From Candidatus Omnitrophota bacterium (lineage in GTDB: Bacteria > Omnitrophota > Gorgyraeia > Gygaellales > Profunditerraquicolaceae), in assembly GCA_028712375.1 (NCBI GenBank), contig JAQTQG010000004.1, forward strand, positions 5,303 through 69,302: a DNA stretch of 64,000 bases. The letters run 5' to 3'. The notes beneath the pieces are model-generated. The model was not told the DNA's origin. It ran no database searches and worked only from the letters and a program-made list of their open reading frames with translations. Below, one piece after another: positions 22,709 through 40,697 of this stretch. Both the position numbers and the translations under genes were made by a program. How positions within the stretch are numbered: the stretch's first letter is position 1; the number at the start of each line of letters is the position of its first letter.

Positions 22709-22789
22709 TTGTTATTTTGTTAGATTTGACCTTTTTTTGCGTCAATTATTGTAGGAAAAGAATAATAACGCGAGAAAGGAGAGGGCAAA

Positions 22790-23818: not shown

Positions 23819-23838
23819 TTACAGTAGAAGGATAAGCT

Positions 23839-24845: not shown

Positions 24846-25116
24846 TCTTATGAAAAAGAAAGATGATTTTATTAAAAGTATTAAATTAACTAAAGAAGAG
24901 CAGTGGATAGAAGATCATATGGAAGAATTCGTCCCAATAAAAGGCCCGGAGTATGATTTTATCGTAGCTTCCATAGAGCGCAAGAAGAAGGAAATGGTTT
25001 TGAATATGCGCATTAACCGGGACGATCTGGAAGCGATTAAGCAAAAAGCCCGCAAAGCCGGGATTAAATACCAGACGCTTATCTCCGAGATTCTGCACAG
25101 GGTCGCCCAAAATTAA
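24832..25116 (+). CDS. brnA: BrnA-family antitoxin (ribbon-helix-helix C-terminus)
   Basis: 94 aa. Overlaps the brnT end. C-terminal LEAIKQKARKAGIKYQTLISEILHR matches the BrnA GIPYQ.LI..LH signature. Confidence 0.6.
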   Translation: MRKVNLMKKKDDFIKSIKLTKEEQWIEDHMEEFVPIKGPEYDFIVASIERKKKEMVLNMRINRDDLEAIKQKARKAGIKYQTLISEILHRVAQN

Positions 25117-25137
25117 GGTGTTATCACGAGTCTGAAT

Positions 25138-25240
25138 GGATTAGGCTAGTTTTTAGCTTGTGTCATTGCGAGCCCCGCAGGGGCGAAGCGACGAGGGCGA
25201 AACGCCCGAGGAAGTGCCTAGCCCAGAGAGGCTAGGCTAA
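25138..25240. repeat. GC-rich cluster of three near-perfect hairpins in an otherwise AT-rich spacer
   Basis: Hairpins gagcccc-gca-ggggc, gagggcg-aaa-cgcccgag and gcctagcc-cagaga-ggctaggc. The last is a perfect 8-bp inverted repeat. Confidence 0.3.
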
Positions 25241-25296
25241 TCTATCTTTTAAAACTATAATCTTCTACGTTTTTCCTGTCATTTTCCCTCCAAAAG

Positions 25297-25400
25297 TGCT
25301 ATAATTTAAGCTTCTTAGGAGAAATTATGTCTTTATTTAAGTTTGCGTTTAATTTATATTTATAGCTATTTTTAACCCAGCCGTATAAGCTGGGTTTTTG
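25297..25400 (+). promoter_or_regulatory. Putative extended -10 promoter (TGcTATAAT), 12-codon leader ORF (MSLFKFAFNLYL, 25327..25365, RBS AGGAG) and intrinsic-terminator-like hairpin (25376..25400). Forms a candidate attenuator immediately upstream of the PLD-SNF2 gene.
   Basis: All elements seen directly in the sequence. Hairpin cccagc-cgtataa-gctggg is followed by ttttt, 19 nt before the ATG at 25419. Confidence 0.35.
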
Positions 25401-25418
25401 TTTAAGAAAGGTAGTTAA

Positions 25419-28400: not shown

Positions 28401-28586
28401 TTACCTAAACAGACTAGTAAAACTCTAGTTAAACAGATAAAAGGGGAAAGCAATCCTTTGAAAATTCTTTTCAAGTTTAAGCAGGGGATCCCGCATAATT
28501 TCTTCTCTGAAGGATTTGTAGATAATCCATATTATAACACGGCTCCCAGAGAAGTTATTTTGTCAGAATATTTGATTAATAAATAA
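25419..28586 (+). CDS. Fusion of an N-terminal PLD-family (HKD) nuclease domain with an SNF2/SF2 helicase (DEAH box)
   Basis: 1055 aa. HKD motif DIHAKVYII...ITGSSNFS. Walker A LADVVGLGKTYI. DEAH box IFIDEAHRF. Helicase-C motifs ITTDILAEGVNLH...NYDIPWNPTRVLQRVGRVNR. Confidence 0.85.
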   Translation: MHTDLTFFTNEKDSTLLQRFKVTLENNTQFFDVLVGYFRTSGFFHLYKSLEKVEKIRILVGINVDRQTHDLTVKAKEDQLSIKFSHKEAKDTFSEQVAREMEESEDNVDVELGVQKFIEFIKSGKLQIRAYPSGDIHAKVYIIRKDINKSEDYGRVITGSSNFSYSGLHDNLEFNVELKDSRDVKYALEKFEELWKDGVDISEKYVETINEKTWLNDTIVPYELYLKFLYEYFKEKINEDMDSIYKDKRFLPEGFMDLEYQDEAVKDALTKLGDYGGVFLADVVGLGKTYISALLAQQLEGYTLVICPPVLMDYWHDTFRDFGVRGFEVESLGKLDKLIENGVEKYRNIFIDEAHRFRNETNQTYEKLKQICWGKRIILVSATPLNNTPFDILSQIKLFQKGHNSTIPNVRDLDKFFAGLQKKLKSVDRKEIKNYLKLVKENSLIIRENILKYLMVRRTRTEVLKYFKKDLQQQRLKFPEVAEPRRVYYQFDAQLDKIFMRTIELIKNFKYTRYMPLLYLKNPDPQEVSGQRNLGRFMRILLVKRLESSFYAFKMTLDRFIHSYDVFIKMLDKGTIYISKKHSEKIYEALENDDIDRIMELVEQDKVQKYEANDFGKPFRENLKDDLDILLEMKKLWDGVQADPKIDQFKSILTKDKILKENKLIIFTESKETAEYLDRNLRQEFGDKVISYSSKSSASVRETIIDNYDPKHKNQKDDIRVLITTDILAEGVNLHRANVVINYDIPWNPTRVLQRVGRVNRVDTKFDDIYVYNFFPSVQGNNEIKLEEAAIAKIQAFHDTLGEDAQYLTEGEEYTSHELFNRLNSQKLLAEGGEEDEDSELKYLSEIRDIRDNNAALYEKIKRLPKKARSAKVYPDFKEAVVTFFKKGKLRKIYIADAKEAKELDFFNAAVILKSENTKKKEKLAADFYKLLAQNKDQFKLATTEEAREFKQEGGRSNEITLVRTIKAIKKFSGFTDEDEEYLERVLKALEEGALPKQTSKTLVKQIKGESNPLKILFKFKQGIPHNFFSEGFVDNPYYNTAPREVILSEYLINK

Positions 28587-28587
28587 G

Positions 28588-31500
28588 ATGAAAAATCTGG
28601 TAAGGCAGACCTTAGAGAGAGATTTTGATCTTCCGCAATATACCGAATTCGTAAAAAATCTATTTAATGAGATTCAAATTCAGCCCCAAGAAATCAAAGT
28701 CCCTGACAGCTCTCAAGAATTTATCAAGAAAATAACATTTCTTTCTGAATTCTCTGATACTCAGAAGAAAACCATAGATGTTTATGCAGTTGAGCTTGTC
28801 GGCGGCACAAAAGTAGAGCGCGCCCGTTCCTTTCAACGTAACATTATTTCAAAACTGCTCAAGGATAACACTAAAGACGCTGGATTAGTGGCTTTTTACT
28901 CTAAGGATAACCCTGACTGGCGGCTATCTTTTATTAAACTGGACTATAAACTGACTGAAAAGGGCGTTAAAGTTGAAGTCGGTACTCCCCCTAAGCGTTA
29001 TTCCTTCCTGGTAGGCAAATCAGAGCCTTCTCACACTGCTCAGAAGCAACTTTTGCCAATCCTGGAAGATCAAAAGAGTAATCCGCTACTTTCAGATTTG
29101 GAAGTAGCTTTCAGTGTTGAAAGAGTAACCAAGGAATTCTACGAGCGCTACAGAAAATTATTCGAAGAGCTCTCTAAAGACTTAAAGAAAAATAAAGCAT
29201 TTCAGATCATTGCTGAAAAAGAAAATATTGATATTGATAACTTTGCTAAGAAATTACTTGGTCAGATAGTATTTTTATATTTTCTGCAGAAAAAGGGTTG
29301 GATAGGAGTGCCCCAGGATAAGTCATGGGGTCAGGGAGATAAGTTCTTCTTGACGCATCTGTTTAGCAAAGCGAAAGCCGGGAAACAAGATTTCTATGAT
29401 CATTATCTTGAGCCTCTTTTCTACGATACGTTGAATAATCCACGTCGCGATGAGGTCGACCCCGCATACTCGCGTTATTTTGACTGTAAAATCCCATTCT
29501 TAAACGGCGGTTTATTTGAGCCTGACTATGATTGGAAAAATACCCTTGTTTATCTTGGAAATGATATTTTTGAAGAAATCATTGATACTTTTGATCTTTA
29601 TAACTTCACTGTTAAAGAAGATGAACCGCTGGAAAAAGAGGTTGCGGTTGACCCGGAGATGTTGGGTAAGGTCTTTGAGAATCTTCTTCTTGAGAACATG
29701 CGCAAAGGCCAGGGCGCGTATTATACGCCCAGAGAAATTGTGCATTATATGTGCCAGGAAAGCCTCATTAATCATTTAAATACGGAAACTAAAGTTGATG
29801 CCGACAGAATAAGAAAGTTGATCGCTTTTAAAGATGAAGATTTGGTAAATGGCAATGGTTCGCGAAAAAAAGCCTTGGGATTTTCTGATGGTGAGGCTCA
29901 AAGCCTTGACTGGGCCTTAGCAAATATTAAAGTGTGCGATCCTGCCTGTGGTTCAGGAGCTTTCTTAGTGGGTATGCTTAATGAAATCGTCAGCGCCAGG
30001 CGAATTCTAGAACCGCGCTCGGAATATAAGCTCAAGAAGGAAACGATTCAGGAATGTATCTATGGCGTTGATATTGATCCCGGCGCAGTAGATATCGCGA
30101 AACTTCGCCTTTGGTTAAGTTTAGTTGTTGATTTCGAACTCAGGGATATTGAGCCTTTACCGAATTTGGATTATAAGATAATGTGTGGCAATAGCTTAAT
30201 TGAAGAGTTGATTGTTGGGGAAGAATCAATCAAGTTATTTGACGAGCGGCTGTTAAACATTAAAGAATTTAAAAACACTCCTCCGCAAGATGTGAGACTG
30301 GAAGAATTAAAAGAACAGTTTAAGGAGAAGCAGAAAGAATTACTTGAACTGCATGCCATGAATAAGCTTAGTATGGTGAAGAAAAATGAGCTTGATCTTC
30401 AGATTCGAACAATCAGTAAGGAACTTAACCCTATAGCGAAAAAAACAAAGTCTGAACCGTATCATCCGGTTTTATTTACTGATCAGGCAGATATATATTT
30501 TCAACGTCTTCGAGAGTTGCATAGACAGTTTTTTACCGAATATGATCCAATCAAAAAGAAGGGTCGGCGTAAGCAGATTGAAGAGATTGAGCTCGAGTTT
30601 ATTAAAAGCTCGATTAAAGAAAAAGTGGATGAGCTTGACTCAAAGATTCAAAATCTGAATATGCAAGATTCGCGAGATAGAAATAAACAAGCAGTATTGA
30701 TGAAAAAAAAGCTTGAATATTTAGCTGTTCCGGATCAGATGCGCAATTCAAAAACGAAGCCATATTTCTTGTGGAAGATGAATTTTTTCGAAGTATTCCA
30801 GGAAAAAGGTGGATTTGATGTTGTAATAGCTAATCCACCGTACGATGTTTTAAATGAAGCAGGAAACAATAGAGATCAAAGAAATTTCCTAGATTTAATT
30901 AAAAGGGGGAGATTATTTGAACATTCCCTCGGAGGAAAAATTAATCTATTTAGACTATTTATAGAAAAGGGATTTTATTGCACAAGAAAAAATGGTTTCC
31001 TGACCTATATAGTACCAAGTACGATATTAGCAGATAAAGGAACTACAAATATACGAAAATTGTTGGCGAATAATACAACAGTAAGGTTCTTTTTAGAGTT
31101 TCCCGAAAAAAGTAAAGTGTTCGAAAGCGTTACGCAGGCAGTAGCTATTTTCTTGTTTCAAAAAAAAATCGAGAATAATAATTTCTTTATCTCAACAAAC
31201 ATTCAATCTCAAAACTTGCCTCCGGAAGAAAAATTTTTTACTAACTGGTTAGAAATAAAACAGATTTCAGGAGACGACTTAGCCATTCCTTTGGTCAAGA
31301 ATGCTAAAGAATACGCAGTTTTAGGTAAAATGCTGACCAATAATATACCTTTGGGCAAACTAGTGGAAATTAAGCAAGGCGATATTAATTTAACTTTTCA
31401 TAAAATGTTTCTGTCCGATAAGCCATCGGAAAGAATTTTGGTAAGAGGAGAACATATTCAAAGGTTTCGCGTTAATTTAGATACATTAGATAAGGATCGT

Positions 31501-32028
31501 AGATGGGTCGATTGGGAAGCAATGAAAAGAGAATTAGGGGAACTTAAAATTGAAACAATAAGGATAAATTCTAGCGTTGAACGTATTGTTCTCCAGCAGG
31601 TTGCAAATATGGGTCTAGAGAGAAGGATTGTTGCTTCAATTATTCCCCGAGACGTTATTGTCGGAAATTCAGCTAATTTTATAATACCTAGGAAAGATTA
31701 TGAACGTGTTGATATGCAATCGATATTAGCCATATTATCATCCAAAGTTATAAACTGGAAATTTAAAAAAACTAGTACAAATAATCATGTAAATATATAC
31801 GAATTAGAAAATCTTCCATTTCCCAAGCAGCTTTTAAAAGAGAAAAATGATTATCTTGGTAAATTGGTTACAGAAATTCTTAATATTACGCGAGAGGAAA
31901 GCTATTTGGCTAATGCCAGCATGCAAGCTAAGGTCAAAGAATATGATCGTCTGATCGACCAAATCGTATATAAACTTTATGGACTTACTCTTGATGAAAT
32001 TAAACTAGTAGAGAATTTCAATAAATGA
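28588..32028 (+). CDS. Large gamma-class N6-adenine DNA methyltransferase with C-terminal TRD-like region (Eco57I/PglX/DrmMI-like)
   Basis: 1146 aa. IPFLNGGLFE helical-domain motif. Motif X GAYYTPREIV, motif I DPACGSGAFL, LPNLDYKIMCGNSL, and motif IV VIANPPYDV. Start is 1 nt after the upstream stop (translational coupling). Confidence 0.85.
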   Translation: MKNLVRQTLERDFDLPQYTEFVKNLFNEIQIQPQEIKVPDSSQEFIKKITFLSEFSDTQKKTIDVYAVELVGGTKVERARSFQRNIISKLLKDNTKDAGLVAFYSKDNPDWRLSFIKLDYKLTEKGVKVEVGTPPKRYSFLVGKSEPSHTAQKQLLPILEDQKSNPLLSDLEVAFSVERVTKEFYERYRKLFEELSKDLKKNKAFQIIAEKENIDIDNFAKKLLGQIVFLYFLQKKGWIGVPQDKSWGQGDKFFLTHLFSKAKAGKQDFYDHYLEPLFYDTLNNPRRDEVDPAYSRYFDCKIPFLNGGLFEPDYDWKNTLVYLGNDIFEEIIDTFDLYNFTVKEDEPLEKEVAVDPEMLGKVFENLLLENMRKGQGAYYTPREIVHYMCQESLINHLNTETKVDADRIRKLIAFKDEDLVNGNGSRKKALGFSDGEAQSLDWALANIKVCDPACGSGAFLVGMLNEIVSARRILEPRSEYKLKKETIQECIYGVDIDPGAVDIAKLRLWLSLVVDFELRDIEPLPNLDYKIMCGNSLIEELIVGEESIKLFDERLLNIKEFKNTPPQDVRLEELKEQFKEKQKELLELHAMNKLSMVKKNELDLQIRTISKELNPIAKKTKSEPYHPVLFTDQADIYFQRLRELHRQFFTEYDPIKKKGRRKQIEEIELEFIKSSIKEKVDELDSKIQNLNMQDSRDRNKQAVLMKKKLEYLAVPDQMRNSKTKPYFLWKMNFFEVFQEKGGFDVVIANPPYDVLNEAGNNRDQRNFLDLIKRGRLFEHSLGGKINLFRLFIEKGFYCTRKNGFLTYIVPSTILADKGTTNIRKLLANNTTVRFFLEFPEKSKVFESVTQAVAIFLFQKKIENNNFFISTNIQSQNLPPEEKFFTNWLEIKQISGDDLAIPLVKNAKEYAVLGKMLTNNIPLGKLVEIKQGDINLTFHKMFLSDKPSERILVRGEHIQRFRVNLDTLDKDRRWVDWEAMKRELGELKIETIRINSSVERIVLQQVANMGLERRIVASIIPRDVIVGNSANFIIPRKDYERVDMQSILAILSSKVINWKFKKTSTNNHVNIYELENLPFPKQLLKEKNDYLGKLVTEILNITREESYLANASMQAKVKEYDRLIDQIVYKLYGLTLDEIKLVENFNK

Positions 32029-32072
32029 ATTGGAGAAGCCTAGGGCATAGTTTGTAATAAAGGAGGAAGTTG

Positions 32073-32930
32073 ATGCTTAATTTGCTTTTGACGGATAAGC
32101 CAGAGATCCGCAAGATGGAATTTGTATTTTGTCGGTTTCATTTCGAAGGATTATTCTCTCAGGATGTACTTACCAGAATGAAGGAATTCTTAATGAAATC
32201 AGAAGAAAAATCAATAGAAGAAGAAAGATTTAAGTGGGCTTTTGGAGATGTTGGAATCCAAAGCATCAATAATGATGAAATAATCTATGGAAGGCTTGGT
32301 AGGACGATTAAACAGAAATTCGGGACAGTATACGATCAAAATAAGCACTCCTATAAGAAAGATCTAATAAAAAGTAGTGAAGCGGCATATTCAAACTTTT
32401 TTATAATGCCAAAATTTAACATAATAGCTTTAGAGGATAAGTATAATTTAACTAAAAAGTTATTCATTAGTAAGTTTAAGGAATTTTGGGATAAAAATGA
32501 CTATACCGACATAAAATTTGAATTTTTAAAAGATGAAATAGAAATATTTGATTTAGTCAAGAGCTGGGATAGGCTTTCTCGCGCAACATTTGATTTGGTT
32601 CCTTCTAATCCTAGTTCACGAGACGACTGGAAAGAAGTTGATGAAATAATCCGAAAAGCTGAGGCCAAAAGAGCTAAATTAGAATTTGAAAATAGAGAAA
32701 AGGGTTTAGCGAAACAAGGAAGCGTTATTCAAAAAAGCATGTCTATGGCAGCAGATGGGTATGGAGAATTTAAGTTAAAAGGATGGATAGGTAATGTTGG
32801 CCAAACCTTCAATTCTTTATCAACAATAATCAAAAAGGAAATACATAGTGTAGATGAATTACCTGCGATTTTAGGGCAGCTATATAAAGAAATCAAAAAG
32901 ATTTTGGAAAGGAAAAAGGAGAATGGGTGA
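32073..32930 (+). CDS. Hypothetical protein (unknown family), first of four small genes downstream of the MTase
   Basis: ATG at 32073 with AGGAGG RBS. The track lists a TTG at 32070. Lys/Glu-rich soluble protein. No motif recognised. Confidence 0.4.
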   Translation: MLNLLLTDKPEIRKMEFVFCRFHFEGLFSQDVLTRMKEFLMKSEEKSIEEERFKWAFGDVGIQSINNDEIIYGRLGRTIKQKFGTVYDQNKHSYKKDLIKSSEAAYSNFFIMPKFNIIALEDKYNLTKKLFISKFKEFWDKNDYTDIKFEFLKDEIEIFDLVKSWDRLSRATFDLVPSNPSSRDDWKEVDEIIRKAEAKRAKLEFENREKGLAKQGSVIQKSMSMAADGYGEFKLKGWIGNVGQTFNSLSTIIKKEIHSVDELPAILGQLYKEIKKILERKKENG

Positions 32931-33468
32931 AAGCAATTATGATTTAAAAAATTTATTCAAAAAATATGGGGGTTGGGTTAGAATATTCAAGTCTTTTGAT
33001 TTCATTTTTGCTTTCATCTTTGCTATGTTTGTTTTTTGTTATATGACATGGCCTGATGCTACTGGTCGGGGTTATTTCGCCAAAGAATTGGCCTCAGTTT
33101 TATTAAACATCTCTGCCAGTTTATTCGGAATATTATTTGCAGCCTTCGCAATTATACTTTCGCTATCTGATGAAAAATTCATAAAATTCCTAAGAAAGCA
33201 TAATGTGTTGGATAAGATTCTATTTCCATTTTGGTTTATTTCTTTTTTGTACATAATTAATATAGCTCTCGATATTTTAATAAAATTCTTTCCTGATAAT
33301 ATTGCCAAATATTTTACTACTATTTCTATTTTACTATTCTTTTGGGCTATTTTTGGTACGGCATATCTTATTAGTGATACAGTTTCTTTCGGGATAAGAA
33401 GGGCAGATTATTTAGAATTTGAGAAAGAAATAGGGGAATTAACGAAAGATACAAAGCAGACGCGATAA
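32923..33468 (+). CDS. Hypothetical multi-pass membrane protein
   Basis: 181 aa. About 4 hydrophobic segments. Overlaps the upstream gene by 8 nt. Confidence 0.4.
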   Translation: MGESNYDLKNLFKKYGGWVRIFKSFDFIFAFIFAMFVFCYMTWPDATGRGYFAKELASVLLNISASLFGILFAAFAIILSLSDEKFIKFLRKHNVLDKILFPFWFISFLYIINIALDILIKFFPDNIAKYFTTISILLFFWAIFGTAYLISDTVSFGIRRADYLEFEKEIGELTKDTKQTR

Positions 33469-33522
33469 ATGTACGCTTTACGTCTTAATGTAAAAATGTC
33501 TTATAGCTGAGATGGAGGGGGT

Positions 33523-34140
33523 ATGGACGAAAAATTACAGAATATCACAGTATTAGAGAATATGCATAAGTTATTTCTTGAAGCTTTGCGTCATCGTGAA
33601 CAAGAAATTTTTCATTATCTTGCCATACTCGGCCCAGCACTTGTTGGTTTTGGATGGATTTTATATTATCGAGAAGGGCGTGCTGTTGAATTCGCTTGTG
33701 TGACAATAGTAGTTTTAGCACTTTTATTGCTAGGAGCGATTTATTCTTTGGCTTTAGGATACAACTATCGGTATATTGTTCTGGAATTAGCCAAATTGGA
33801 AGCGGTGTTAAAGATTAAGAATGCTATGCTTGTTGGTTGGCCTAGATCGAGAGAAGAATTTCTCTTGCGGTACAGGTTTTTACGCTATATCCCATGGTGC
33901 ACACCTCCCGAGATAATTAAAGTCTTTTGGTGGGCTTTCTTAGTAGCGATAATTTTAGTAATGATGATAGCTTATAAACTTAATCATAGTTATAATAATC
34001 TGATGCTTGGATTTGGGTTACTTTGTTTAGTACTAGGTTCTTTTCTGTTTCCAATCTATTTCGGTCGTAAGTTACGAAAAAATTGTAAACAAGAACCAGA
34101 AGCTTGGATAGAAGAAAGTACAAAAAGCAAGATTGCATGA
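33523..34140 (+). CDS. Hypothetical multi-pass membrane protein
   Basis: 205 aa with ~4 predicted TM segments. Basic C-terminus. Confidence 0.4.
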   Translation: MDEKLQNITVLENMHKLFLEALRHREQEIFHYLAILGPALVGFGWILYYREGRAVEFACVTIVVLALLLLGAIYSLALGYNYRYIVLELAKLEAVLKIKNAMLVGWPRSREEFLLRYRFLRYIPWCTPPEIIKVFWWAFLVAIILVMMIAYKLNHSYNNLMLGFGLLCLVLGSFLFPIYFGRKLRKNCKQEPEAWIEESTKSKIA

Positions 34141-34209
34141 GATTTTCGATAGACAAAATAAGTAAAATTAGCATTTTAGTCTAAGTAGTTATCGTAGAGA
34201 GCGCTTATT

Positions 34210-34680
34210 ATGGGACGATGGGAACGAAAAGACGTGCCTCATAAAGGATGGATTTGCGTTGATTACTATGATTTACATGCAAATGGAGAAGTAGGGTATG
34301 CTACTTGCGAGATGTGTAACAATGAAAGAATTAGATATATTCATATAATGCGTCATGAAAGTTATGCTAAAGAGTTAAAAGTTGGTTGTATATGTGCAGA
34401 AAAGATGGCTGACGACTATGTGGGGCCTAAAAGTCGGGAAAAACTACTCAAAAATCGATCAATTCGCCGCAAGAATTGGTTAAAAAGAAATTGGAGACAA
34501 TCTTCGCGGGGGAATGATTATTTGAATGTAGACGGGCACAATGTTACTATTTTTCCAGATAAAAACAGGGCTGAGCATTGGAAATTTAAGATAGACGATG
34601 ATTTTAGTTTAAAAAGCTATGTCGAAAAGAATCAGGCGAAGATAGCGGCTTTTGATGCGTTAATGAAGAAGCGAGAATGA
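34210..34680 (+). CDS. Hypothetical Cys-containing protein (possible zinc-binding)
   Basis: 156 aa. C...CEMC...CIC spacing. No family recognised. Confidence 0.35.
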   Translation: MGRWERKDVPHKGWICVDYYDLHANGEVGYATCEMCNNERIRYIHIMRHESYAKELKVGCICAEKMADDYVGPKSREKLLKNRSIRRKNWLKRNWRQSSRGNDYLNVDGHNVTIFPDKNRAEHWKFKIDDDFSLKSYVEKNQAKIAAFDALMKKRE

Positions 34681-34747
34681 TTGCTCACCAAAAGGGAGTA
34701 TCCCTTTTTCATATACAACTCAAAGGGTATATGTTAAGTGGGGCTTT

Positions 34748-34826
34748 GGGCGGCTGGTGGAATGGCAGACACACAAGCCTTGAAAGCTTGTGGACTTAGG
34801 TCCGTGAGGGTTCGACTCCCTCGCCG
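34748..34826 (+). tRNA. tRNA-Ser (anticodon TGA)-like gene with a non-complementary 3' acceptor strand. Possibly truncated, a pseudo-tRNA, or an att junction.
   Basis: 5' acceptor gggcggc, then tg. D-arm gtg/gaatggcaga/cac. Anticodon arm caagc-cttgaaa-gcttg (TGA at positions 34-36). Long variable arm ggac-tta-gtcc. T-arm gaggg-ttcgact-ccctc. The following 7 nt are gccggaa, not the expected gccgccc. Confidence 0.55.
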
Positions 34827-34884
34827 GAAATTATTTGAAAGATTAACATAGATTTTTCAATTGATTCAAGCAGGAGGCATAGGA

Positions 34885-36153
34885 ATGGCCGAACAAACTA
34901 TCATTTGTCCTTTTTGTAAGAAAGAAATTCCGTTAACTCAGGCTATCACTCAGAAAATTGGAGCAGACCTGCGTAAGGAGATGGAGGAAGATTTCGCTAA
35001 GCGTGACAGTGAATTGTCAGGCCGAGAAAATACGCTGGTTGCTAAAGAGCAGGCAGTAGCTAAGTCGGCGCAAGAGGTAGATAAGAAAATTGAGGATGAG
35101 GTCGCTCGAAAACTTGTCCTTGAGAGAGAAACAATACTTAAAGAGGCAAAAAAGAAAGCAGAGGAAGAAAATTCCTTGCAACTCAAGGTTCTTCAGGAAG
35201 ATTTGCATTCGAAAGATAAGCAGCTTCAGGAAACGCAGAAAAACGAACTTCTGCTTAGAAAACAAAAGTCTGATTTGGAAGCAAGAGAAAGAAATGTAGA
35301 TTTGGAAGTTGCCAGAAAGATTGATTCTGAACGGGCTAATATTTTCTCCGAAGCGTCCCAGAAGGTTGCTGAAGATTTTCAGTTAAAGGATAAGGATAAA
35401 GACAAGAAAATAGCGGATTTGAGAAGCCAGATAGAAATACTTAATAGAAAGATGGAGCAAGGATCGCAACAGGCCCAGGGAGAGGTTTTAGAGATTGAAT
35501 TGGAGCAGATGCTTAAGTCCGCTTTTCCTTATGATGTTATCGAGGCGGTGCCTAAAGGGATTAAGGGCGCAGATGTTTTGCAGAAAGTTAATAATCCTAT
35601 GGGGCAGTATTGCGGAACAATCATTTGGGAGTCTAAGCGGACAAAAGGCTGGAACGACGATTGGATAGACAAGCTAAAAGATGACCAAAGGGAAGTTAAA
35701 GCGGATATCGCGGTTTTAATGAGTATCACGCTTCCTAAAGAGATTAATGGTTTTGCTCAAGCAAAAGGTGTCTGGGTGACAAGTTATCCTTTGGCTATTG
35801 CGCTTGCCGTGGCATTGCGAGGAAGTCTTGTGGAAGTTGCCAATGCCAAGCAATCTGCGGTCGGTAAGGCCGAGAAGATGGAAGCGATTTATAACTATCT
35901 TTCCGGCACAGAATTTAAGCAAAAGGTCGAGGCTATTGTAGAGGCCTTTGCAACCATGCATTCTGATTTGGCTAAAGAAAAAGCTGCTATGGAGAAGCTT
36001 TGGGGAAAACGAGAGCAGCAGATTAAGAAGGTTATGCTCAATACGGCTAGGATGTATGGAGATATGCAAGGTATAATTGGTGCGTCTTTACCGGAGATTA
36101 AGAGCTTAGAGTTAAAATCTTTAGCTGATGAAACAGAAGAAAAAGCAGAATAA
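34885..36153 (+). CDS. DUF2130-like protein (N-terminal zinc ribbon, central coiled coil, conserved C-terminal domain)
   Basis: ATG at 34885 after AGGAGG. CPFCKKEIPL zinc ribbon. Long K/E-rich coiled coil. C-terminal IIWESKRTKGWNDDWIDKLKDD block recalled as DUF2130-like. Confidence 0.5.
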   Translation: MAEQTIICPFCKKEIPLTQAITQKIGADLRKEMEEDFAKRDSELSGRENTLVAKEQAVAKSAQEVDKKIEDEVARKLVLERETILKEAKKKAEEENSLQLKVLQEDLHSKDKQLQETQKNELLLRKQKSDLEARERNVDLEVARKIDSERANIFSEASQKVAEDFQLKDKDKDKKIADLRSQIEILNRKMEQGSQQAQGEVLEIELEQMLKSAFPYDVIEAVPKGIKGADVLQKVNNPMGQYCGTIIWESKRTKGWNDDWIDKLKDDQREVKADIAVLMSITLPKEINGFAQAKGVWVTSYPLAIALAVALRGSLVEVANAKQSAVGKAEKMEAIYNYLSGTEFKQKVEAIVEAFATMHSDLAKEKAAMEKLWGKREQQIKKVMLNTARMYGDMQGIIGASLPEIKSLELKSLADETEEKAE

Positions 36154-36538
36154 AATTAATTGCTTAAAACGGAAGGATATACCTGTGATCACGTTAAAGG
36201 TATATGGAGAAACACGTTGTTCAACAAAAGAAAATTGGCAGAAAGTCATTTGTTTTGTTTCTTATTGTTGTTTCTCTAAGCATAGACAGATTGTTGAGAA
36301 CTCGTTTCAGGATTATCTAAAGTTAGATTTAGATGACATGAGGGAAAATCATTCCGAGCTTTTTTTAGAACCGCACAATATTGGGAGAGCGATATTGCTC
36401 TATCATTATTTTAGGGAAAGACACCGTTTCTTTAAAGATAATCATTGGGAATATGAGAATCCTGAATCAATACCTATTCGTGAGCCCGATACTGAAGGGG
36501 AAGATTATAAGCTTTGGGTTTGTGAAGATGAAAATTGA
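36128..36538 (+). CDS. Hypothetical protein
   Basis: 136-aa ORF overlapping the previous gene's end. No recognisable motif. Confidence 0.3.
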   Translation: MKQKKKQNKINCLKRKDIPVITLKVYGETRCSTKENWQKVICFVSYCCFSKHRQIVENSFQDYLKLDLDDMRENHSELFLEPHNIGRAILLYHYFRERHRFFKDNHWEYENPESIPIREPDTEGEDYKLWVCEDEN

Positions 36539-36585
36539 GTTGTTTAATTTGAAAATAATGAAGACTTTTTATTTAAAATGATAAG

Positions 36586-37071
36586 ATGAAAAGAAACGCA
36601 ATTCCCGACAGTTTAAGGCAACTTTTATTTCAAGAGGCTAATTTTCAGTGTGCTTATTGTGGGCATCGTGATGGCTTAAATTTAACCTGTCATCATATTA
36701 AATCTAGCGGGGAAAAGGGAGAAACTCATTACAATAATTTGATAGCTTTATGCTATAACTGCCATAATAGGATACATGAGTCCAAAACAATAAACGATAG
36801 CGATATTAGAAGAATAAAACGACACTTAGTCCATAATTTTTTAACTCAATCTGGAGTAAACGCATTAAAGATAGCATATAATGATATAGACGGTTTTGTT
36901 TATGCCGTGCCTTCTTTATTGGATCATCTTGAGGAAAGGGGTTTAATAGAATCTGAGAGCATAGGGTATTCAGCAAAGATAAAAATAAGTACCCCGGCCA
37001 TTAATAATGTTCGTTATAGAATTACTGATGAAGGTAAAAGATTGTATGAAATTTGGCTTAAATCAAAATAA
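36586..37071 (+). CDS. HNH endonuclease
   Basis: CAYCGH...CHHI...NLIALCYNCHNRIH HNH/zinc motif. Confidence 0.75.
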   Translation: MKRNAIPDSLRQLLFQEANFQCAYCGHRDGLNLTCHHIKSSGEKGETHYNNLIALCYNCHNRIHESKTINDSDIRRIKRHLVHNFLTQSGVNALKIAYNDIDGFVYAVPSLLDHLEERGLIESESIGYSAKIKISTPAINNVRYRITDEGKRLYEIWLKSK

Positions 37072-37135
37072 ATTAATAGTTGTTTTGTATCTAACTGGTA
37101 GAAAGCATATTCGTAGGTTTTAGTAGACGAGAACC

Positions 37136-37507
37136 ATGCAAATTAAAATTACCATAAATAAACTTACAGTTTTCGCGGAACTCAATGCCTCTAAAACCGC
37201 GCAATTGATTTGGGATAGTCTACCGCTTGAGGCTGATGCGGAGCTTTGGGGCGATGAAGTTTATTTTTATATTAAACCCAAGACGGGTATTGAAAAAGAA
37301 TACGCGCGCCAGGTGGTTGAGGTTGGTGATGTTGCCTATTGGCCGCAAGGGCCTTGTATGTGCTTATTTTTTGGCATGACTCCCAATAGCCGGGATGGTA
37401 AGATTATGCCGGCGAGCGCGGTAAATGTATTTGGTAAGTTAAAAACTGATCCTTTAGTGTTAAAGCAGGTTAAAGAGGGGCAGCGGATTAAGGTTGAGCA
37501 AGCCTAA
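37136..37507 (+). CDS. Cyclophilin-like-fold protein (DUF3830-like)
   Basis: 123 aa. The pattern KITINKLTVFAELNASKTAQ...VAYWPQGPCMCLFFG resembles the uncharacterised cyclophilin-like family. Confidence 0.45.
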   Translation: MQIKITINKLTVFAELNASKTAQLIWDSLPLEADAELWGDEVYFYIKPKTGIEKEYARQVVEVGDVAYWPQGPCMCLFFGMTPNSRDGKIMPASAVNVFGKLKTDPLVLKQVKEGQRIKVEQA

Positions 37508-37592
37508 GTAAATATATAAAACGGCCTGTCCATATTTGTTCTGTAGTTAAAAGAACTGCAAGTAGCTAAGTAATCGTTTATTATCTTATCCT

Positions 37593-38915
37593 ATGAAACT
37601 TTTCTCCCACCAAACAATCGCCAATGATCAGCTTCCGGAAAATCTTGATATCAACGATGAGTTTGAAAAGGCGTTTGAGCTGATGGAGCATACCAAAGAA
37701 TGCCTTTTTATCACCGGTAAAGCGGGCACCGGAAAATCTACGCTTTTAAAATATTTTAAAGCTAATACCGGAAAGAATATCATTGTCTTGGCTCCCACGG
37801 GGGTTGCCGCGGTGAATGTCGGCGGCCAGACAATTCATTCCTTCTTCAGGTTTCCTCCTAAAATCATTCAAAAGGAGACGATAAAACGCCTGCGGGATAG
37901 GAGCTTATTCGAAAACCTGGATATGATTATTATTGATGAGGTCTCCATGGTGCGTTCAGACCTGATGGATGGGATAGATTACGCGTTACGCCTTAACCGC
38001 GGCCGGATGAAAGTGCCTTTTGGCGGAGTGCAGATGGTATTTTTCGGAGACCTTTTTCAATTGTCTCCGGTAGTAGAACATGAATCCAGAAAACTTTTAG
38101 GAGAGCGGTATTTAAGCCCTTATTTTTTTAGCGCTAAAGTATTTGACGATTGCCACCTGAGGACCATTGAACTATCGACGATTTACCGGCAAAAAGATAG
38201 CGCGTTTATGGAGCTTTTAAACCGGGTGAGGAATAAAGAGCATACCGGAAAGGACTTGGCGATATTAAATAAGAAGGTGCAAAAAGATGTTACCGTTTCC
38301 CGGAAAGATTCAACCGTGATTCTGACGACGACTAACAGCCTGGCCAATGCGATTAACCAGGAGCGTTTATCCAAGCTGCCCGGTAAAGAGATGGTGTATA
38401 AAGCTAATGCTACCGGTAAATTTGAAGAGTCGGCATATCCTACGGAATCATCGCTCAGGCTTAAAAAAGGCGCGCAGGTAATTTTAATCAAAAATGATCC
38501 TGATAAAAGATGGGTCAACGGTACGCTGGCCAAGGTTGCCGCTTTATCGCCAGATTCAATCGTCGTGGAGATCGATGGTTTTACCTATGATGTCCCGGTG
38601 GTAAAGTGGGAGAAAGTTGAATATAGCTATAATGAAGATGAAGATAAAATAGAAGATGAGGTGGTGGGGGAGTTCGCGCAGTATCCCTTAAAGCTGGCCT
38701 GGGCAATTACTATTCATAAAAGCCAGGGGCAGACTTTTGATAAGGTGATTATTGACCTTGGATATGGTGCTTTTACCCACGGCCAGTTATATGTTGCTCT
38801 TAGCAGATGCACTTGCCTGGACGGTATAAAGCTTAAACGCCCGGTGGCCCACAGCGATATCATCTTTGATGAGCGTATTTATGAATTTAACCAGCGGTTT
38901 GCCAGCTTATTTTAA
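37593..38915 (+). CDS. Pif1/RecD-like SF1 DNA helicase
   Basis: Walker A ITGKAGTGKSTLLK. Motif II IIIDEVSMV. C-terminal ITIHKSQGQTFD typical of Pif1/RecD-like helicases. Confidence 0.8.
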   Translation: MKLFSHQTIANDQLPENLDINDEFEKAFELMEHTKECLFITGKAGTGKSTLLKYFKANTGKNIIVLAPTGVAAVNVGGQTIHSFFRFPPKIIQKETIKRLRDRSLFENLDMIIIDEVSMVRSDLMDGIDYALRLNRGRMKVPFGGVQMVFFGDLFQLSPVVEHESRKLLGERYLSPYFFSAKVFDDCHLRTIELSTIYRQKDSAFMELLNRVRNKEHTGKDLAILNKKVQKDVTVSRKDSTVILTTTNSLANAINQERLSKLPGKEMVYKANATGKFEESAYPTESSLRLKKGAQVILIKNDPDKRWVNGTLAKVAALSPDSIVVEIDGFTYDVPVVKWEKVEYSYNEDEDKIEDEVVGEFAQYPLKLAWAITIHKSQGQTFDKVIIDLGYGAFTHGQLYVALSRCTCLDGIKLKRPVAHSDIIFDERIYEFNQRFASLF

Positions 38916-38930
38916 AATAAGCTGGTTTAA
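38902..38930 (+). terminator. Terminator hairpin overlapping the helicase stop codon
   Basis: ccagcttatttt-aaaataagctgg inverted repeat followed by ttt. Confidence 0.4.
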
Positions 38931-39060
38931 TCTCCGGCTGCAAAAAGCCATTTTTATTTAATAAATATTTCTGAGAATTTTCCGTATTTGTTCTATAATA
39001 CTATGTAGCATAAGTATCTATATGAACTGTCTGTTATGGCCGCATAGTTGCTGAAAGGTT

Positions 39061-39642
39061 TTGCGATTGATGAAGGATAAAAATAAGACAGTTAACTTTG
39101 GAAAAAATACAGTTTTATTTATTATCGCAATCCTGGCTTTTTCCTGTGTTTTCTTTTTTAATCCTGCTATTTCTCCGGCACAGGATGAAACAACAGAGAT
39201 TTACGCGGATAAAAACAATTTCTTTATCTTTACTCCGCCTGCGGGGTGGACAAAAAAAGAGATGGCAAATGATACTTCTTCCCAGGTAGCCTTTCGTTCC
39301 TCTGACGGCAAGGCCGAGCTGGCGGTAATTGCCCAGTTTAACGAAGGAGAGTCCAATGAGCTTTTCTCCCAGAAAAAATCCTATATTAAAGACTTCCAGC
39401 AGCGGTTTCCTAACGGCACTTTTACTCTTACCTGGGATAGATTGGGTGAACGCAAGGCAATTAAAATAAATTTTGAAATACCTAAAGTAATAAAACAGGA
39501 GCAATATTTTCTCTTTGAGCAGGGAATGCGTTTTGATTTGATCTATGGCGTAGGAAATTCCGCGGATTTTAAAAAATACCGGCAAGCAGCTTTAGATGCT
39601 TTTGTTACTGTGCAGCGTCAGGAACCGGTTAAGGGTAAATAA
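39061..39642 (+). CDS. Hypothetical secreted protein
   Basis: N-terminal hydrophobic signal/anchor (LFIIAILAFSCVFFF). No family recognised. Confidence 0.4.
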   Translation: MRLMKDKNKTVNFGKNTVLFIIAILAFSCVFFFNPAISPAQDETTEIYADKNNFFIFTPPAGWTKKEMANDTSSQVAFRSSDGKAELAVIAQFNEGESNELFSQKKSYIKDFQQRFPNGTFTLTWDRLGERKAIKINFEIPKVIKQEQYFLFEQGMRFDLIYGVGNSADFKKYRQAALDAFVTVQRQEPVKGK

Positions 39643-39674
39643 AACAAAAACACAGCCTTTAAGGATGCCTCCCC

Positions 39675-40697
39675 ATGAAAAATAAACTTCTCCAGAAACG
39701 CGCACTGGTTACCGGCGGATCCGGATTTATCGGTTCACATTTGTGCGAAGAACTGCTTGCCCGCGGTTTTAAGGTTACCGTGGTGGATAATCTGGCCACT
39801 TCTGCTAAATCCAATCTTTCCGCGATAATTAAAAACAAAAATTTTAAATTTTATAAAGGCTCGGTTCTTGACGTAAAGCTGATGCGCCGGCTTATCCGTA
39901 GTTGTGATATTGTCTATCATATGGCCGCGGCGGTGGGGGTAAAATATATTCTGGATAATCCTTTGGGCTCGATACTCACTAATATTAAAGGCACGGAAAT
40001 AATTTTTGAGTTAGCCGATAAATACCATAAAAAAGTCGTTTTAGCTTCCACTTCTGAAGTTTACGGTAAACACGCCTGCGAGCCTTTTAAGGAAGAAGAT
40101 GACCGGATATTGGGCCCGGTAAATAAAAGCCGATGGAGTTACGCGGAAGCCAAGGCGATGGATGAATTTTTAGCTTTGGCTTATCTTAAAGAGCGTAAGC
40201 TGCCGGTAGTCATTGTACGGTTTTTTAACACGGTTGGCCCCCGCCAAACCGGCCGTTACGGCATGGTCCTGCCGGGATTTATTTTGAAGGCCATCCAGAA
40301 TAAGCCGATTACCGTCTATGGCGACGGCGCGCAAATGCGTTCATTTACCTTCGTTAAAGACGCGGTGGATGCGGTAGTGGAACTTAGCCTTAATGCACAA
40401 GCCGAAGGCCAGGTGTTTAATGTGGGCGGCGCAGCCAATATATCAATTAAGGATTTGGCTTATAAAGTAAAAGAAAGGGCAGGTTCATCTTCGCAGATAA
40501 TTTTTGTGCCTTATGCGGAGGCTTATAAAGGAAATGCCGAAGATTTTGAGGATATGGTTTGCCGGATTCCGGATGTCAATAAACTGCAGAAGATGATCGG
40601 GTTTAAACCGGAATTTTCGATTGATGAAATAATTGACCGGACTATTGATTACTTTCGGAAGGTGAAAAAATGCGATTTAGGCGGCTGTTTGCGTTAG
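39675..40697 (+). CDS. NAD-dependent epimerase/dehydratase (UDP-glucuronate decarboxylase/UXS-like SDR)
   Basis: Rossmann fold VTGGSGFIGSHL and catalytic YxxxK (YAEAK). Confidence 0.8.
   Translation: MKNKLLQKRALVTGGSGFIGSHLCEELLARGFKVTVVDNLATSAKSNLSAIIKNKNFKFYKGSVLDVKLMRRLIRSCDIVYHMAAAVGVKYILDNPLGSILTNIKGTEIIFELADKYHKKVVLASTSEVYGKHACEPFKEEDDRILGPVNKSRWSYAEAKAMDEFLALAYLKERKLPVVIVRFFNTVGPRQTGRYGMVLPGFILKAIQNKPITVYGDGAQMRSFTFVKDAVDAVVELSLNAQAEGQVFNVGGAANISIKDLAYKVKERAGSSSQIIFVPYAEAYKGNAEDFEDMVCRIPDVNKLQKMIGFKPEFSIDEIIDRTIDYFRKVKKCDLGGCLR

What the first reader, a model, noticed from the sequence alone, without database searches (positions are those of the whole stretch)
34748..34830. tRNA-Ser(UGA)-like gene whose 3' acceptor strand does not pair with its 5' strand
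The D-arm, anticodon arm (cttgaaa loop, TGA anticodon), long variable arm and T-arm (gaggg-ttcgact-ccctc) are all canonical. The 5' acceptor gggcggc predicts a 3' strand gccgccc, yet the sequence reads gccggaa. Only 4 of 7 pairs form, and no CCA is encoded. Divergence exactly after position ~69 is where integrases of tRNA-targeting elements cut. So this could be an att junction with a chimeric or truncated tRNA, a pseudo-tRNA, or an unusual acceptor stem.
Basis: seen in the sequence. Interest (0 to 1): 0.55.

Follow-up and report, generated by a model that had tools for sequence, protein, structure and literature searches.

The report
tRNA-Leu-derived mimic upstream of nuclease gene
The odd "tRNA-Ser" is a conserved RNA gene derived from a leucine tRNA, with a non-leucine anticodon and an acceptor end that never pairs, and it always sits in front of a DUF2130 nuclease gene in Omnitrophota defence islands, so it looks like a working tRNA mimic, not an integration scar.

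Summary
At 34748-34830 (+) there is a clean cloverleaf with anticodon UGA. Its acceptor strands (gggcggc / gccggaa) form only 4 of 7 pairs, and no CCA is encoded.

The interpretation needs revision in three ways.
1. The body is tRNA-Leu type, not Ser. Genuine tRNA-Leu genes share its 5' half.
2. It is not unique. Seven homologous copies exist in other Omnitrophota metagenome contigs, each about 55 nt upstream of a DUF2130 (PD-(D/E)XK nuclease) gene.
   - All seven carry anticodon UCC.
   - All show the same non-pairing acceptor top: 5' GGG invariant, 3' R-A-W.
3. It is under selection.
   - The UCC copies are 93-100% identical, while four-fold sites of the adjacent gene are 46-66% identical.
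   - Every stem difference between the window copy and the others keeps pairing.

No integrase, no repeated tRNA fragment and no empty-site relative with an intact tRNA was found.

Best reading: a non-chargeable tRNA mimic made together with the DUF2130 nuclease mRNA, acting as its regulatory or partner RNA. That mechanism is inferred, not shown. It resembles the irregular "allo-tRNAs" in concept but fails their structural definition. I rate it a new variant of a known kind, of moderate to high interest.

The parts
34690..34709 (+). Terminator-like hairpin (AAAAGGG-agtat-CCCTTTT+T) that closes the upstream gene (ORF 34210-34680). It marks the start of the block conserved with L002, L006, L012 and L014.
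   Evidence: Read from the sequence. Conserved in 5 of 7 aligned loci. Not called by the simple terminator scan.
34728..34747 (+). Conserved 20-nt leader tatatgttaagtggggcttt. Either the promoter/discriminator region of the RNA gene or the 5' part of the RNA. Bases 34730-34736 can pair with 34844-34850.
   Evidence: 85-100% identical between loci although neutral sites are 46-66% identical. gttaagtgggg is retained even in L009, L015 and L030, whose upstream DNA is otherwise unrelated. Helix P0 is 100% paired in 7/7 with two one-sided changes. The transcription start is unknown.
34748..34830 (+). tRNA-like gene: a tRNA-Leu-type class II cloverleaf with anticodon UGA (34781-34783). Four-bp acceptor base (34751-34754 / 34823-34826). 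Non-pairing top GGG (34748-34750) opposite GAA (34827-34829). A at position 73 (34830). No CCA.
   Evidence: sequence, ARAGORN, Rfam. (Leu-type body). (all four arms 100% paired in 7 homologues with 4 both-sided compensations; pairs 2:71 and 3:70 paired in 0/7). (canonical register has the best energy).
34834..34843 (+). Small trailer hairpin with a GAAA loop (ttt-gaaa-gat here; cgcc/cacc-gaaa-ggyt in the other loci).
   Evidence: helix 7: 95% of cells paired, one pair changed on both sides (C-G to U-A in the window copy).
34844..34857 (+). 3' strand of the possible leader/trailer helix (ttaacata, 34844-34850), followed by a T-run (34853-34857).
   Evidence: The T-run is seen in the sequence and in 4 of the other loci.
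34872..36153 (+). AGGAGG ribosome-binding site (34872-34877) and the DUF2130 gene (ATG 34885 to stop 36153, 422 aa). The protein has an N-terminal CxxC hairpin, a long coiled coil and a PD-(D/E)XK nuclease core with D230 and E249-x-K251 invariant. It is the only constant neighbour of the tRNA-like gene.
   Evidence: Pfam PF09903, E 3.4e-70. 100% identical to an NCBI 'Candidatus Omnitrophica bacterium' MAG protein. Invariant residues. AlphaFold model and weak Foldseek hits to PD-(D/E)XK nucleases. Neighbourhood comparison.

Best explanation
The feature is one member of a small, conserved family of tRNA-like RNA genes derived from a tRNA-Leu gene.

The RNA keeps everything needed for the L-shape:
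- U8, A14, A15-U48 and G18G19;
- the T-loop TTCGAYT;
- the D, anticodon, variable and T stems.

It also has two features that take it out of normal translation. The first is a non-leucine anticodon (UGA here, UCC in the seven relatives). The second is an acceptor end whose top three positions are purine-purine or G.U juxtapositions with no CCA.

LeuRS does not read the anticodon (established knowledge). A chargeable version would therefore put Leu at common Gly or Ser codons. The broken acceptor end makes the RNA a non-chargeable tRNA mimic.

It is transcribed just downstream of a terminator hairpin, as the first part of the DUF2130 transcription unit. It most likely serves as a regulatory or partner RNA of that PD-(D/E)XK nuclease. 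One model is a decoy or autoregulatory mimic bound through its tRNA body, by analogy with tRNA-mimicking operators such as the thrS leader.

Shown:
- family membership and Leu-type descent;
- the conserved broken acceptor;
- selection for structure;
- exclusive linkage to DUF2130;
- absence of att hallmarks.

Inferred:
- that it is not aminoacylated;
- that it is co-transcribed with DUF2130;
- that the DUF2130 protein or its expression is what it acts on.
For: (1) Eight loci (window, L002, L006, L009, L012, L014, L015, L030) carry the element 53-55 nt upstream of a DUF2130 start codon on the same strand. Genes on both sides of this pair differ between loci.

(2) Genuine tRNA-Leu(CAA) and tRNA-Leu(GAG) genes found by the same pattern share the 5' half GGGCGGCTGGYGGAATGGYAGACRC and have the full acceptor GGGCGGC/GCCGCCC-A-CCA. 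E. coli leuZ and leuV share the D-arm signature, while serT and tyrT do not.

(3) Acceptor pairs 2:71 and 3:70 are unpaired in 7/7 distinct sequences, and the 5' GGG is invariant. All other stems are 100% paired. Both-sided compensations occur at 11:24, 28:42, 31:39 and 50:64. All 7 stem differences between the window copy and the UCC consensus preserve pairing.

(4) The RNA is 93-100% identical among UCC copies and 77-82% identical between the window copy and the others. Four-fold-degenerate sites in the adjacent CDS are only 46-66% identical.

(5) In the DUF2130 tree, loci with and without the element interleave, and the element is either intact or wholly absent. That is the pattern of an optional functional module, not of decay.

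(6) GGA is 19% of Gly codons in the window's core genes and occurs 2-9 times in each DUF2130 gene next to a UCC copy. Decoding GGA as Leu would not be harmless.

(7) A trailer hairpin and a leader/trailer helix are also conserved, so the selected RNA is larger than a tRNA.
Against: - There is no expression, processing or binding data, and the transcription start is unknown. If transcription starts at G1, the leader/trailer helix cannot form.
- The family is narrow: 8 loci, one Omnitrophota DUF2130 clade of 78-95% identity. Seven of the 8 copies are nearly identical, so the covariation rests on few events, mostly in the window lineage.
- Close DUF2130 homologues work without the RNA (L001, L003-5, L016, L029). 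More distant ones never have it. The nuclease therefore does not need it.
- Nothing shows that DUF2130 binds RNA. Structural matches are weak and are to DNA nucleases.
- A slipped 8-bp acceptor register pairs in 87.5% of cells and cannot be strictly excluded.
Confidence: 0.45

Rival explanations
1. Processing or stability leader only. The tRNA-like fold is a cis signal in the 5' UTR, for example an RNase P or RNase E entry or blocking site, or a stable 5' cap-like structure. It sets the 5' end and half-life of the DUF2130 mRNA when the gene has its own promoter, with no interaction with the DUF2130 protein.
For: - The element is present only where DUF2130 is separated from the previous gene by a terminator-like hairpin and about 200 nt.
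- It is absent where DUF2130 follows the previous gene by 11-66 nt and is presumably read from that gene's promoter.
- The leader, trailer hairpin and spacing to the RBS are conserved.
- tRNA-mRNA co-transcripts and tRNA-like processing signals are established biology (tufB operon, MALAT1/mascRNA; own knowledge).
Against: - RNase P, RNase Z and the CCA-adding enzyme depend mainly on an intact acceptor/T minihelix. That is exactly the part which is defective here.
- The anticodon and variable arms are unnecessary for such processing, yet they are kept by compensatory changes.
Confidence: 0.2
2. A real decoding tRNA with an irregular acceptor: a missense or recoding tRNA charged with Leu (A73, Leu-type body) that reads GGA or UCA. 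It would use either the slipped 8-9-bp acceptor with a 3-bp T stem (allo-tRNA-like 9/3 geometry) or post-transcriptional repair of the acceptor end.
For: - All core tRNA elements, U33 and a purine at 37 are kept, and A73 is present in 7 of 8 copies.
- The slipped register gives 7 of 8 pairs in every member. In the window, L009, L015 and L030 it gives a 9+3 = 12-bp branch.
- Irregular class II tRNAs with non-cognate anticodons that work in E. coli translation are documented (PMC5389517).
- The invariant 5' GGG opposite a drifting 3' R-A-W is what templated 3'-end repair would allow (own inference).
Against: - No register gives a fully paired acceptor.
- The slipped register has an invariant G.G mismatch and no covariation.
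- It is 2.3-3.8 kcal/mol worse than the canonical fold in all 7 sequences.
- It leaves the compensatory change at T-stem pair 50:64 unexplained.
- There is no CCA.
- GGA codons are common in host core genes and in the adjacent gene, so Gly-to-Leu decoding would be broadly damaging.
- The element is dispensable: it was lost cleanly at least 4 times.
- No repair enzyme gene such as a Thg1-like protein was seen among the annotated neighbours.
Confidence: 0.1
3. Non-functional relic: the 5' portion of a tRNA gene whose 3' end was replaced when a DUF2130-bearing element integrated (an att junction). It would have been copied passively with the island since then.
For: - Compared with genuine tRNA-Leu genes of identical 5' half, homology stops after G69: GCCG|CCC-A-CCA versus GCCG|GAA-A. 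Some tRNA-targeting integrases act at the 3' end of tRNA genes (Williams 2002, own knowledge).
- The locus lies in a low-GC defence island at about 22.5-39 kb.
- Presence among close relatives is patchy.
Against: - No integrase and no repeat of the tRNA 3' segment.
- The anticodon is not a Leu anticodon.
- The RNA is 93-100% conserved where neutral sites are 46-66% identical.
- Every stem substitution is compensated.
- No intermediate decay states are seen.
- The variable DNA lies 5' of the element, whereas tRNA-targeting integrases insert 3' of the crossover.
Confidence: 0.1

Closest known systems
Bacterial tRNA-Leu (class II tRNA)
   Same: - The 5' acceptor strand and D arm are identical to those of genuine tRNA-Leu(CAA/GAG) genes (L007/L010 and L008/L011/L013).
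- The D-arm signature TGGYGGAAT(N)GGYAGACRC is shared with E. coli leuZ and leuV.
- The variable arm has the same 1+4+4+4+2 layout as E. coli leuV.
- A73 is present.
   Different: - The anticodon is UGA or UCC instead of a Leu anticodon.
- The top three acceptor pairs are never Watson-Crick.
- No CCA is encoded.
- It is embedded in a conserved leader and trailer in front of a nuclease gene.
Allo-tRNAs and irregular class II tRNAs of Mukai et al. 2017 (PMC5389517), especially the inactive allo-tRNA-UAU group
   Same: - A long variable arm combined with anticodons that do not match the body's identity.
- Stem-destabilising features.
- Location next to toxin-antitoxin or mobile genes in uncultured bacteria.
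- The authors proposed roles as suppressors or regulatory non-coding RNAs.
   Different: - Allo-tRNAs are defined by an 8/4 or 9/3 acceptor/T branch, a tRNA-Sec-like D arm (long stem, tetraloop) and mostly Ser identity (G73/U73).
- This RNA has a Leu-type D arm and A73.
- Its T stem is supported by covariation as 5 bp.
- It is a different lineage (Omnitrophota) with a fixed DUF2130 partner.
tRNA mimics used as regulatory or partner RNAs (thrS operator, bacterial YrlA Y-RNA tRNA-like domain, B. cereus tRNA-Other, mascRNA; own knowledge)
   Same: A tRNA-shaped fold that is not used for decoding and is tied to one protein or transcript. As in tmRNA and YrlA, the ends may be closed by an outer helix.
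   Different: - None of those derives from tRNA-Leu with a full anticodon arm and variable arm.
- None is linked to DUF2130.
- Rfam finds only the generic tRNA model here, with no YrlA, tmRNA or T-box match even at E up to 10.
tRNA-gene att junctions of integrative islands
   Same: Divergence from the parental tRNA at the 3' end of the acceptor strand, and a setting in a defence island.
   Different: No integrase, no flanking repeat, the same junction in 8 loci, strong purifying selection and an altered anticodon.

Membership tests
Bacterial tRNA-Ser(UGA) | Anticodon UGA in a 7-nt loop with U33 | tested here: met
   Loop cttgaaa at 34779-34785. The seven homologues have TCC instead.
Bacterial tRNA-Ser(UGA) | Ser-type D arm and variable arm, with G73 discriminator | tested here: not met
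   The D arm matches tRNA-Leu genes, not E. coli serT (TGGCCGAGCGGTTGAAGGCAC). Position 73 is A.
Bacterial tRNA-Ser(UGA) | Seven-bp acceptor stem | tested here: not met
   4 of 7 pairs in the window. Pairs 2:71 and 3:70 are paired in 0 of 7 family members.
Bacterial tRNA-Leu | Leu-type D arm, variable arm and A73 | tested here: met
   Same 5' half as tRNA-Leu(CAA/GAG) in L007, L008, L010, L011 and L013. Same signature as E. coli leuZ and leuV.
Bacterial tRNA-Leu | Leu anticodon (NAG or YAA) | tested here: not met
   UGA in the window, UCC in the 7 relatives.
Bacterial tRNA-Leu | Paired 7-bp acceptor stem, and aminoacylation by LeuRS | tested here: not met
   The stem criterion is not met. Aminoacylation is not testable with these tools.
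Rfam RF00005 tRNA | Score at or above the gathering threshold | tested here: met
   37.2 bits against 29, but as a local match to model positions 4-67.
tRNA-gene att junction of an integrative element | Integrase or recombinase gene next to the tRNA 3' end or within the island | tested here: not met
   Pfam scans of every ORF of 94 aa or more between 22.8 and 39.6 kb found none. Six of those ORFs have no Pfam match.
tRNA-gene att junction of an integrative element | Direct repeat of the tRNA 3' segment at the other island end | tested here: not met
   No second match to the T arm/acceptor with up to 3 mismatches, no repeat family, and no covariance-model hit in the 64-kb window. A repeat of only 4-7 nt could not be recognised.
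tRNA-gene att junction of an integrative element | Relatives with an empty site carrying the intact tRNA | tested here: not met
   Loci lacking the element (L001, L003-5, L016, L029) have no tRNA at all upstream of DUF2130.
Allo-tRNA (PMC5389517) | 12-bp acceptor branch in 8/4 or 9/3 configuration | tested here: inconclusive
   A slipped 8(9)/3 register pairs in 87.5% of cells. However, it has an invariant G.G mismatch and no covariation, and its energy is worse by 2.3-3.8 kcal/mol. T-stem pair 50:64 covaries as in a 7/5 tRNA.
Allo-tRNA (PMC5389517) | tRNA-Sec-like D arm (long stem, tetraloop) | tested here: not met
   The D arm is a 3-bp stem with a 10-nt loop of Leu type. Definition taken.
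Allo-tRNA (PMC5389517) | Long variable arm with an anticodon foreign to the body's identity, near TA or mobile genes | tested here: met

The most novel reading that the evidence does not exclude
The tRNA-like RNA and the DUF2130 PD-(D/E)XK nuclease form a previously unrecognised two-component RNA-protein immunity or toxin-antitoxin module. In it, a non-chargeable class II tRNA mimic is the sensor, decoy or antitoxin of the nuclease, and its anticodon arm sets specificity. That arm was re-tuned from UCC to UGA in this genome by 9 substitutions, all stem changes being compensated.
Probability: 0.15. Interest if true: 0.85.

Novelty: new variant of a known kind. Interest (0 to 1): 0.6.

Why it matters
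Automatic annotation will file this locus as tRNA-Ser, and its relatives as an impossible long-armed 'tRNA-Gly'. In fact it is a selected tRNA-Leu derivative that cannot be an ordinary tRNA.

If the RNA works with the DUF2130 nuclease, two things follow. It gives a first functional handle on a widespread domain of unknown function that sits in defence islands. It also adds a tRNA-mimic RNA component to the list of bacterial immune or toxin-antitoxin parts.

It also shows how a tRNA with a dangerous anticodon-identity mismatch can be kept in a genome, namely by disabling its acceptor end.

The family is small and confined to uncultured Omnitrophota, so the reach of the finding is uncertain.

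Tried and rejected
- **Strict pattern scans.** A pattern of D loop + UGA loop + T loop gave 0 hits in genome, viral and metagenome contigs. The exact UGA variant is so far unique to this genome.
- **BLAST.** A search against E. coli genomes found nothing. A search against phages gave only weak hits (74-89% over 37-76 nt), those with an annotation being tRNA-Leu genes. That was the first hint of the Leu type.
- **Exact-protein look-ups.** Look-ups for the window's DUF2130 and NrdR proteins found no record.
- **Conserved alternative acceptor.**
  - ARAGORN's slipped register and a GGG-bulge model were both counted and scored.
  - Neither beats the canonical fold.
  - U-1.R70 and U-2-A71 can pair in 7/7.
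- **Minimum-free-energy folding.** Folding of the whole leader-to-trailer RNA does not return a cloverleaf and is only marginally better than shuffles (z -2.0 and -1.0). This was not informative.
- **Anticodon loop pairing with the downstream RBS region.**
  - The window loop CUUGAA is complementary to ttcaag at 34865-34870.
  - L006 has the same ttcaag with a UCC loop, so I treat the match as chance.
- **Promoter scan.** No sigma-70-type site was found upstream.
- **DUF2130 function.**
  - There was no PADLOC or NCBIfam family and no sequence match to solved structures.
  - Foldseek hits to PD-(D/E)XK DNA nucleases were only weak.
- **Codon-avoidance test.** No avoidance of GGA or UCA was seen in the adjacent genes.
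- **More distant DUF2130 loci.** Seven viral contigs, L017 and L031-33 carry no tRNA-like element.

Full report
**1. The observation**

- 5' strand: gggcggc.
- D stem: gtg/cac.
- Anticodon arm: caagc-cttgaaa-gcttg.
- Variable arm: 15 nt, with a 4-bp stem.
- T arm: gaggg-ttcgact-ccctc.
- 3' strand: gccggaa, then a-ttattt.

Only the four inner acceptor pairs form, and no CCA is encoded.

ARAGORN finds this as the only tRNA in the 64-kb window, at 34746-34829. It calls it tRNA-Ser(tga) only by slipping the 5' strand by two bases. That costs two T-stem pairs and leaves four bases before the D stem.

Rfam's tRNA model scores 37.2 bits (gathering score 29), but as a local match to model positions 4-67. 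It therefore omits precisely the three outer acceptor pairs.

**2. Setting**

The window is a chromosomal segment with nearly all genes on the + strand. It carries purine-biosynthesis genes, Sua5/YrdC, SHMT, dCMP deaminase and NrdR, and later sugar-nucleotide and glycosyltransferase genes.

Between about 22.5 and 39 kb, GC falls to 0.33-0.40. The genes there are typical of a defence island:
- YhcG/DUF1016 nuclease and RadC;
- a CopG-antitoxin pair;
- an HKD-SNF2 helicase and a type IIG restriction-methylase;
- four unknown ORFs;
- the tRNA-like gene and a DUF2130 gene;
- a small HNH protein, a cyclophilin-like protein and a Pif1-type helicase.

No integrase or transposase was found among the ORFs of this stretch.

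The DUF2130 protein is 100% identical to one from an NCBI 'Candidatus Omnitrophica bacterium' MAG.

**3. It is Leu-type, not Ser-type**

The best phage BLAST hits were weak, and those with an annotation lay on tRNA-Leu genes.

I then ran a pattern built from the 5' acceptor strand, D loop and T loop against JGI metagenomes. It returned only two kinds of sequence.
- Genuine tRNA-Leu(CAA) and tRNA-Leu(GAG) genes. They have the same 5' half (GGGCGGCTGGCGGAATGGYAGACGCGC) and a complete acceptor, GGGCGGC/GCCGCCC-A-CCA.
- Homologues of the present element.

In an alignment with E. coli serT, tyrT, leuZ and leuV, the D-arm signature TGGYGGAAT(N)GGYAGACRC is shared with the Leu genes and not with Ser or Tyr. 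The variable arm also has the layout of leuV.

'Ser' is therefore only the anticodon. The body is a tRNA-Leu body with A73.

**4. It belongs to a family**

Contexts of close DUF2130 homologues and two further pattern scans gave seven more copies:
- L002, L006, L009, L012, L015 and L030;
- L014, from the GTDB genome 'Candidatus Omnitrophica bacterium UBA1562'.

Each lies 53-55 nt upstream of a DUF2130 start codon on the same strand.

ARAGORN labels all seven 'tRNA-Gly(tcc)' with a long variable arm, which no normal tRNA-Gly has.

All eight copies have the invariant 5' strand GGGCGGC. Their 3' strand is GCCG followed by GAA, AAT or GAT. On the seven-sequence alignment, pairs 2:71 and 3:70 form in 0 of 7 sequences, and 1:72 is G.U in 4 of 7.

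The unpaired acceptor top is thus a family trait, not an accident of this genome.

**5. Selection**

Between loci, the DUF2130 proteins are 78-92% identical. Four-fold-degenerate third positions are 46-66% identical, apart from the near-duplicate pair L009/L015.

By contrast:
- the 83-nt RNA is 93-100% identical among the UCC copies;
- the 20-nt leader is 80-100% identical across all pairs;
- the window copy is 77-82% identical to the others.

The window copy has 15 differences from the UCC consensus. Nine of them lie in the anticodon arm. All seven that fall in stems keep pairing:
- 28:42 U-A to A-U;
- 31:39 U-A to C-G;
- 50:64 G-C to A-U;
- 49:65 G.U to G-C.

L002 adds a compensated change at 11:24.

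In the counting test, the D, anticodon, variable and T stems are 100% paired. Five pairs changed on both sides, and 0 of 500 shuffles reached that value. With seven closely related sequences, this rests on few events.

The tertiary-interaction positions are invariant: U8, A14, A15/U48, G18G19 and T54-A58.

**6. Which acceptor register?**

ARAGORN's slipped register pairs in 87.5% of cells across the family. It has three weaknesses.
- It has an invariant G.G mismatch and no covariation, and it needs the T stem cut to 3 bp.
- It leaves the compensated change at 50:64 unexplained.
- Its evaluated energy is 2.3-3.8 kcal/mol worse than the canonical cloverleaf with a 4-bp acceptor, in all seven sequences.

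A model in which U-1 and U-2 pair with R70 and A71 around a GGG bulge is possible in 7/7, but is energetically no better.

I keep the canonical register and note the alternatives.

Outside the cloverleaf, a trailer hairpin with a GAAA loop (34834-34843) shows one compensated pair. A 7-bp leader/trailer helix (34730-34736 with 34844-34850) is paired in 7/7. Whether the leader is transcribed is unknown. It could instead be the promoter and a GC-rich discriminator, with transcription starting at G1.

**7. Linkage and distribution**

DUF2130 is the only constant neighbour. The genes upstream vary (AAA_15 ATPase, unknown ORFs, type I R-M). So do the genes after DUF2130: HNH follows in L002 directly and in the window after one short ORF, and other genes follow elsewhere.

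Close DUF2130 homologues without the RNA exist: L001, L003-5, L016, L029 and the contig of P0005. In these, the gene follows the previous one by 11-66 nt, and homology ends at the ribosome-binding site.

In a neighbour-joining tree of the proteins, loci with and without the RNA interleave. The element is therefore probably ancestral to this 78-95% clade and was lost cleanly at least four times.

More distant DUF2130 loci have none: seven IMG/VR contigs, L017 and L031-33.

A covariance model of the family finds no second copy or fragment in the window.

**8. What it most likely is**

An att junction or decaying pseudo-tRNA does not fit. There is no integrase, no repeat and no empty site with an intact tRNA. 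The junction is identical in eight loci and the anticodon is foreign. Conservation is strong and substitutions are compensated.

The position of the break relative to genuine tRNA-Leu (GCCG|CCC-A-CCA) leaves an ancient 3'-end disruption open as the origin.

A decoding tRNA is unlikely.
- No register gives a sound acceptor stem.
- LeuRS ignores the anticodon (established knowledge), so a chargeable form would insert Leu at GGA or UCA.
- GGA is 19% of Gly codons in the core genes and occurs 2-9 times in each adjacent DUF2130 gene, with no avoidance.

What remains is a tRNA-shaped RNA kept for its body, not its acceptor end. That is a non-chargeable tRNA mimic made with the DUF2130 transcription unit.

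The defective part (the acceptor) is the part that processing enzymes need, and the anticodon and variable arms are maintained. So I favour binding of the tRNA body by a protein over a pure processing-signal role. DUF2130 is the only candidate protein the data offer. That step is inference.

DUF2130 itself is a PD-(D/E)XK-superfamily protein of unknown function (PMC3424549).
- D230 and E249-x-K251 are invariant.
- The model shows a long coiled coil.
- Fold matches to Bax1, SPARDA, DdmD and BamHI-type nucleases are only weak.

**9. Comparison with known things**

The nearest concept is the allo-tRNAs and other irregular class II tRNAs found in metagenomes. These carry non-cognate anticodons and sometimes destabilised stems, and they lie near toxin-antitoxin genes. 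Their authors suggested roles as suppressors or regulatory RNAs (PMC5389517).

The present family fails the allo-tRNA definition. It lacks the 8/4 or 9/3 branch and the Sec-like D arm, and it has Leu rather than Ser identity. It is also tied to one protein family.

Rfam has nothing but the generic tRNA model for it.

I therefore rate it a new variant of a known kind (tRNA-derived mimic RNAs), of moderate to high interest. The limits are the narrow distribution and the absence of any functional data.

Noticed in passing
window 22500-39700: A low-GC (0.33-0.40) defence island inserted between nrdR and sugar-nucleotide genes. It holds YhcG/DUF1016, RadC, a CopG-antitoxin pair, an HKD+SNF2 helicase (PADLOC C3a139/DrmD-like) followed by a type IIG restriction-methylase, four ORFs with no family, DUF2130, an HNH protein with weak PtuB similarity, a cyclophilin-like protein and a Pif1/RecD-like helicase. 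No integrase was found.
   Followed up: partly
window 25160-25240: A GC-rich stretch of three consecutive hairpins (gccccgcaggggc, gggcgaaacgccc, cctagcc..ggctagg) lies in the AT-rich gap between the CopG-like gene and the HKD-SNF2 helicase gene. Folding z-score is -2.9, with 0 of 200 shuffles as stable. There is no Rfam match at gathering level. It could be a small RNA, a terminator cluster or a repeat element.
   Followed up: partly
window 34710-34733: A 7-bp inverted repeat, CATATAC-N10-GTATATG, lies directly between the terminator-like hairpin and the leader. Its 3' arm overlaps the 5' strand of the possible leader/trailer helix, so the two pairings exclude each other. It is conserved in L002, L012 and L014, nearly so in L006, and absent in L009, L015 and L030.
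   Followed up: no
L002 4181-7773; window 36586-37071: In L002 the order is AAA_15/AAA_21 ATPase, tRNA-like, DUF2130, HNH (161 aa, 78% identical to the window's HNH). With the DUF2130 unit removed, this looks like a Septu-like PtuA/PtuB pair. In the window the ATPase is missing. It is unclear whether DUF2130 and its RNA are inserted into, or work with, such ATPase-HNH pairs.
   Followed up: no
L010 1-6273 (WNGL01000031.1): A dense cluster of 18 tRNA genes in 6 kb in a high-GC metagenome contig. One is called by ARAGORN with a four-base anticodon (tagg) at 534-609.
   Followed up: no
window 34865-34870 versus 34779-34784: The window's anticodon loop CUUGAA is perfectly complementary to ttcaag, which lies just upstream of the DUF2130 ribosome-binding site. 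L006 has the same ttcaag with a UCC loop, so this is probably coincidence.
   Followed up: partly
L009 3841-3915, L015 3790-3863: In the loci whose upstream DNA differs, a partial second copy of the leader motif (gtttaagtggg) lies about 50 nt upstream of the real leader (gtgttaagtgggg).
   Followed up: no
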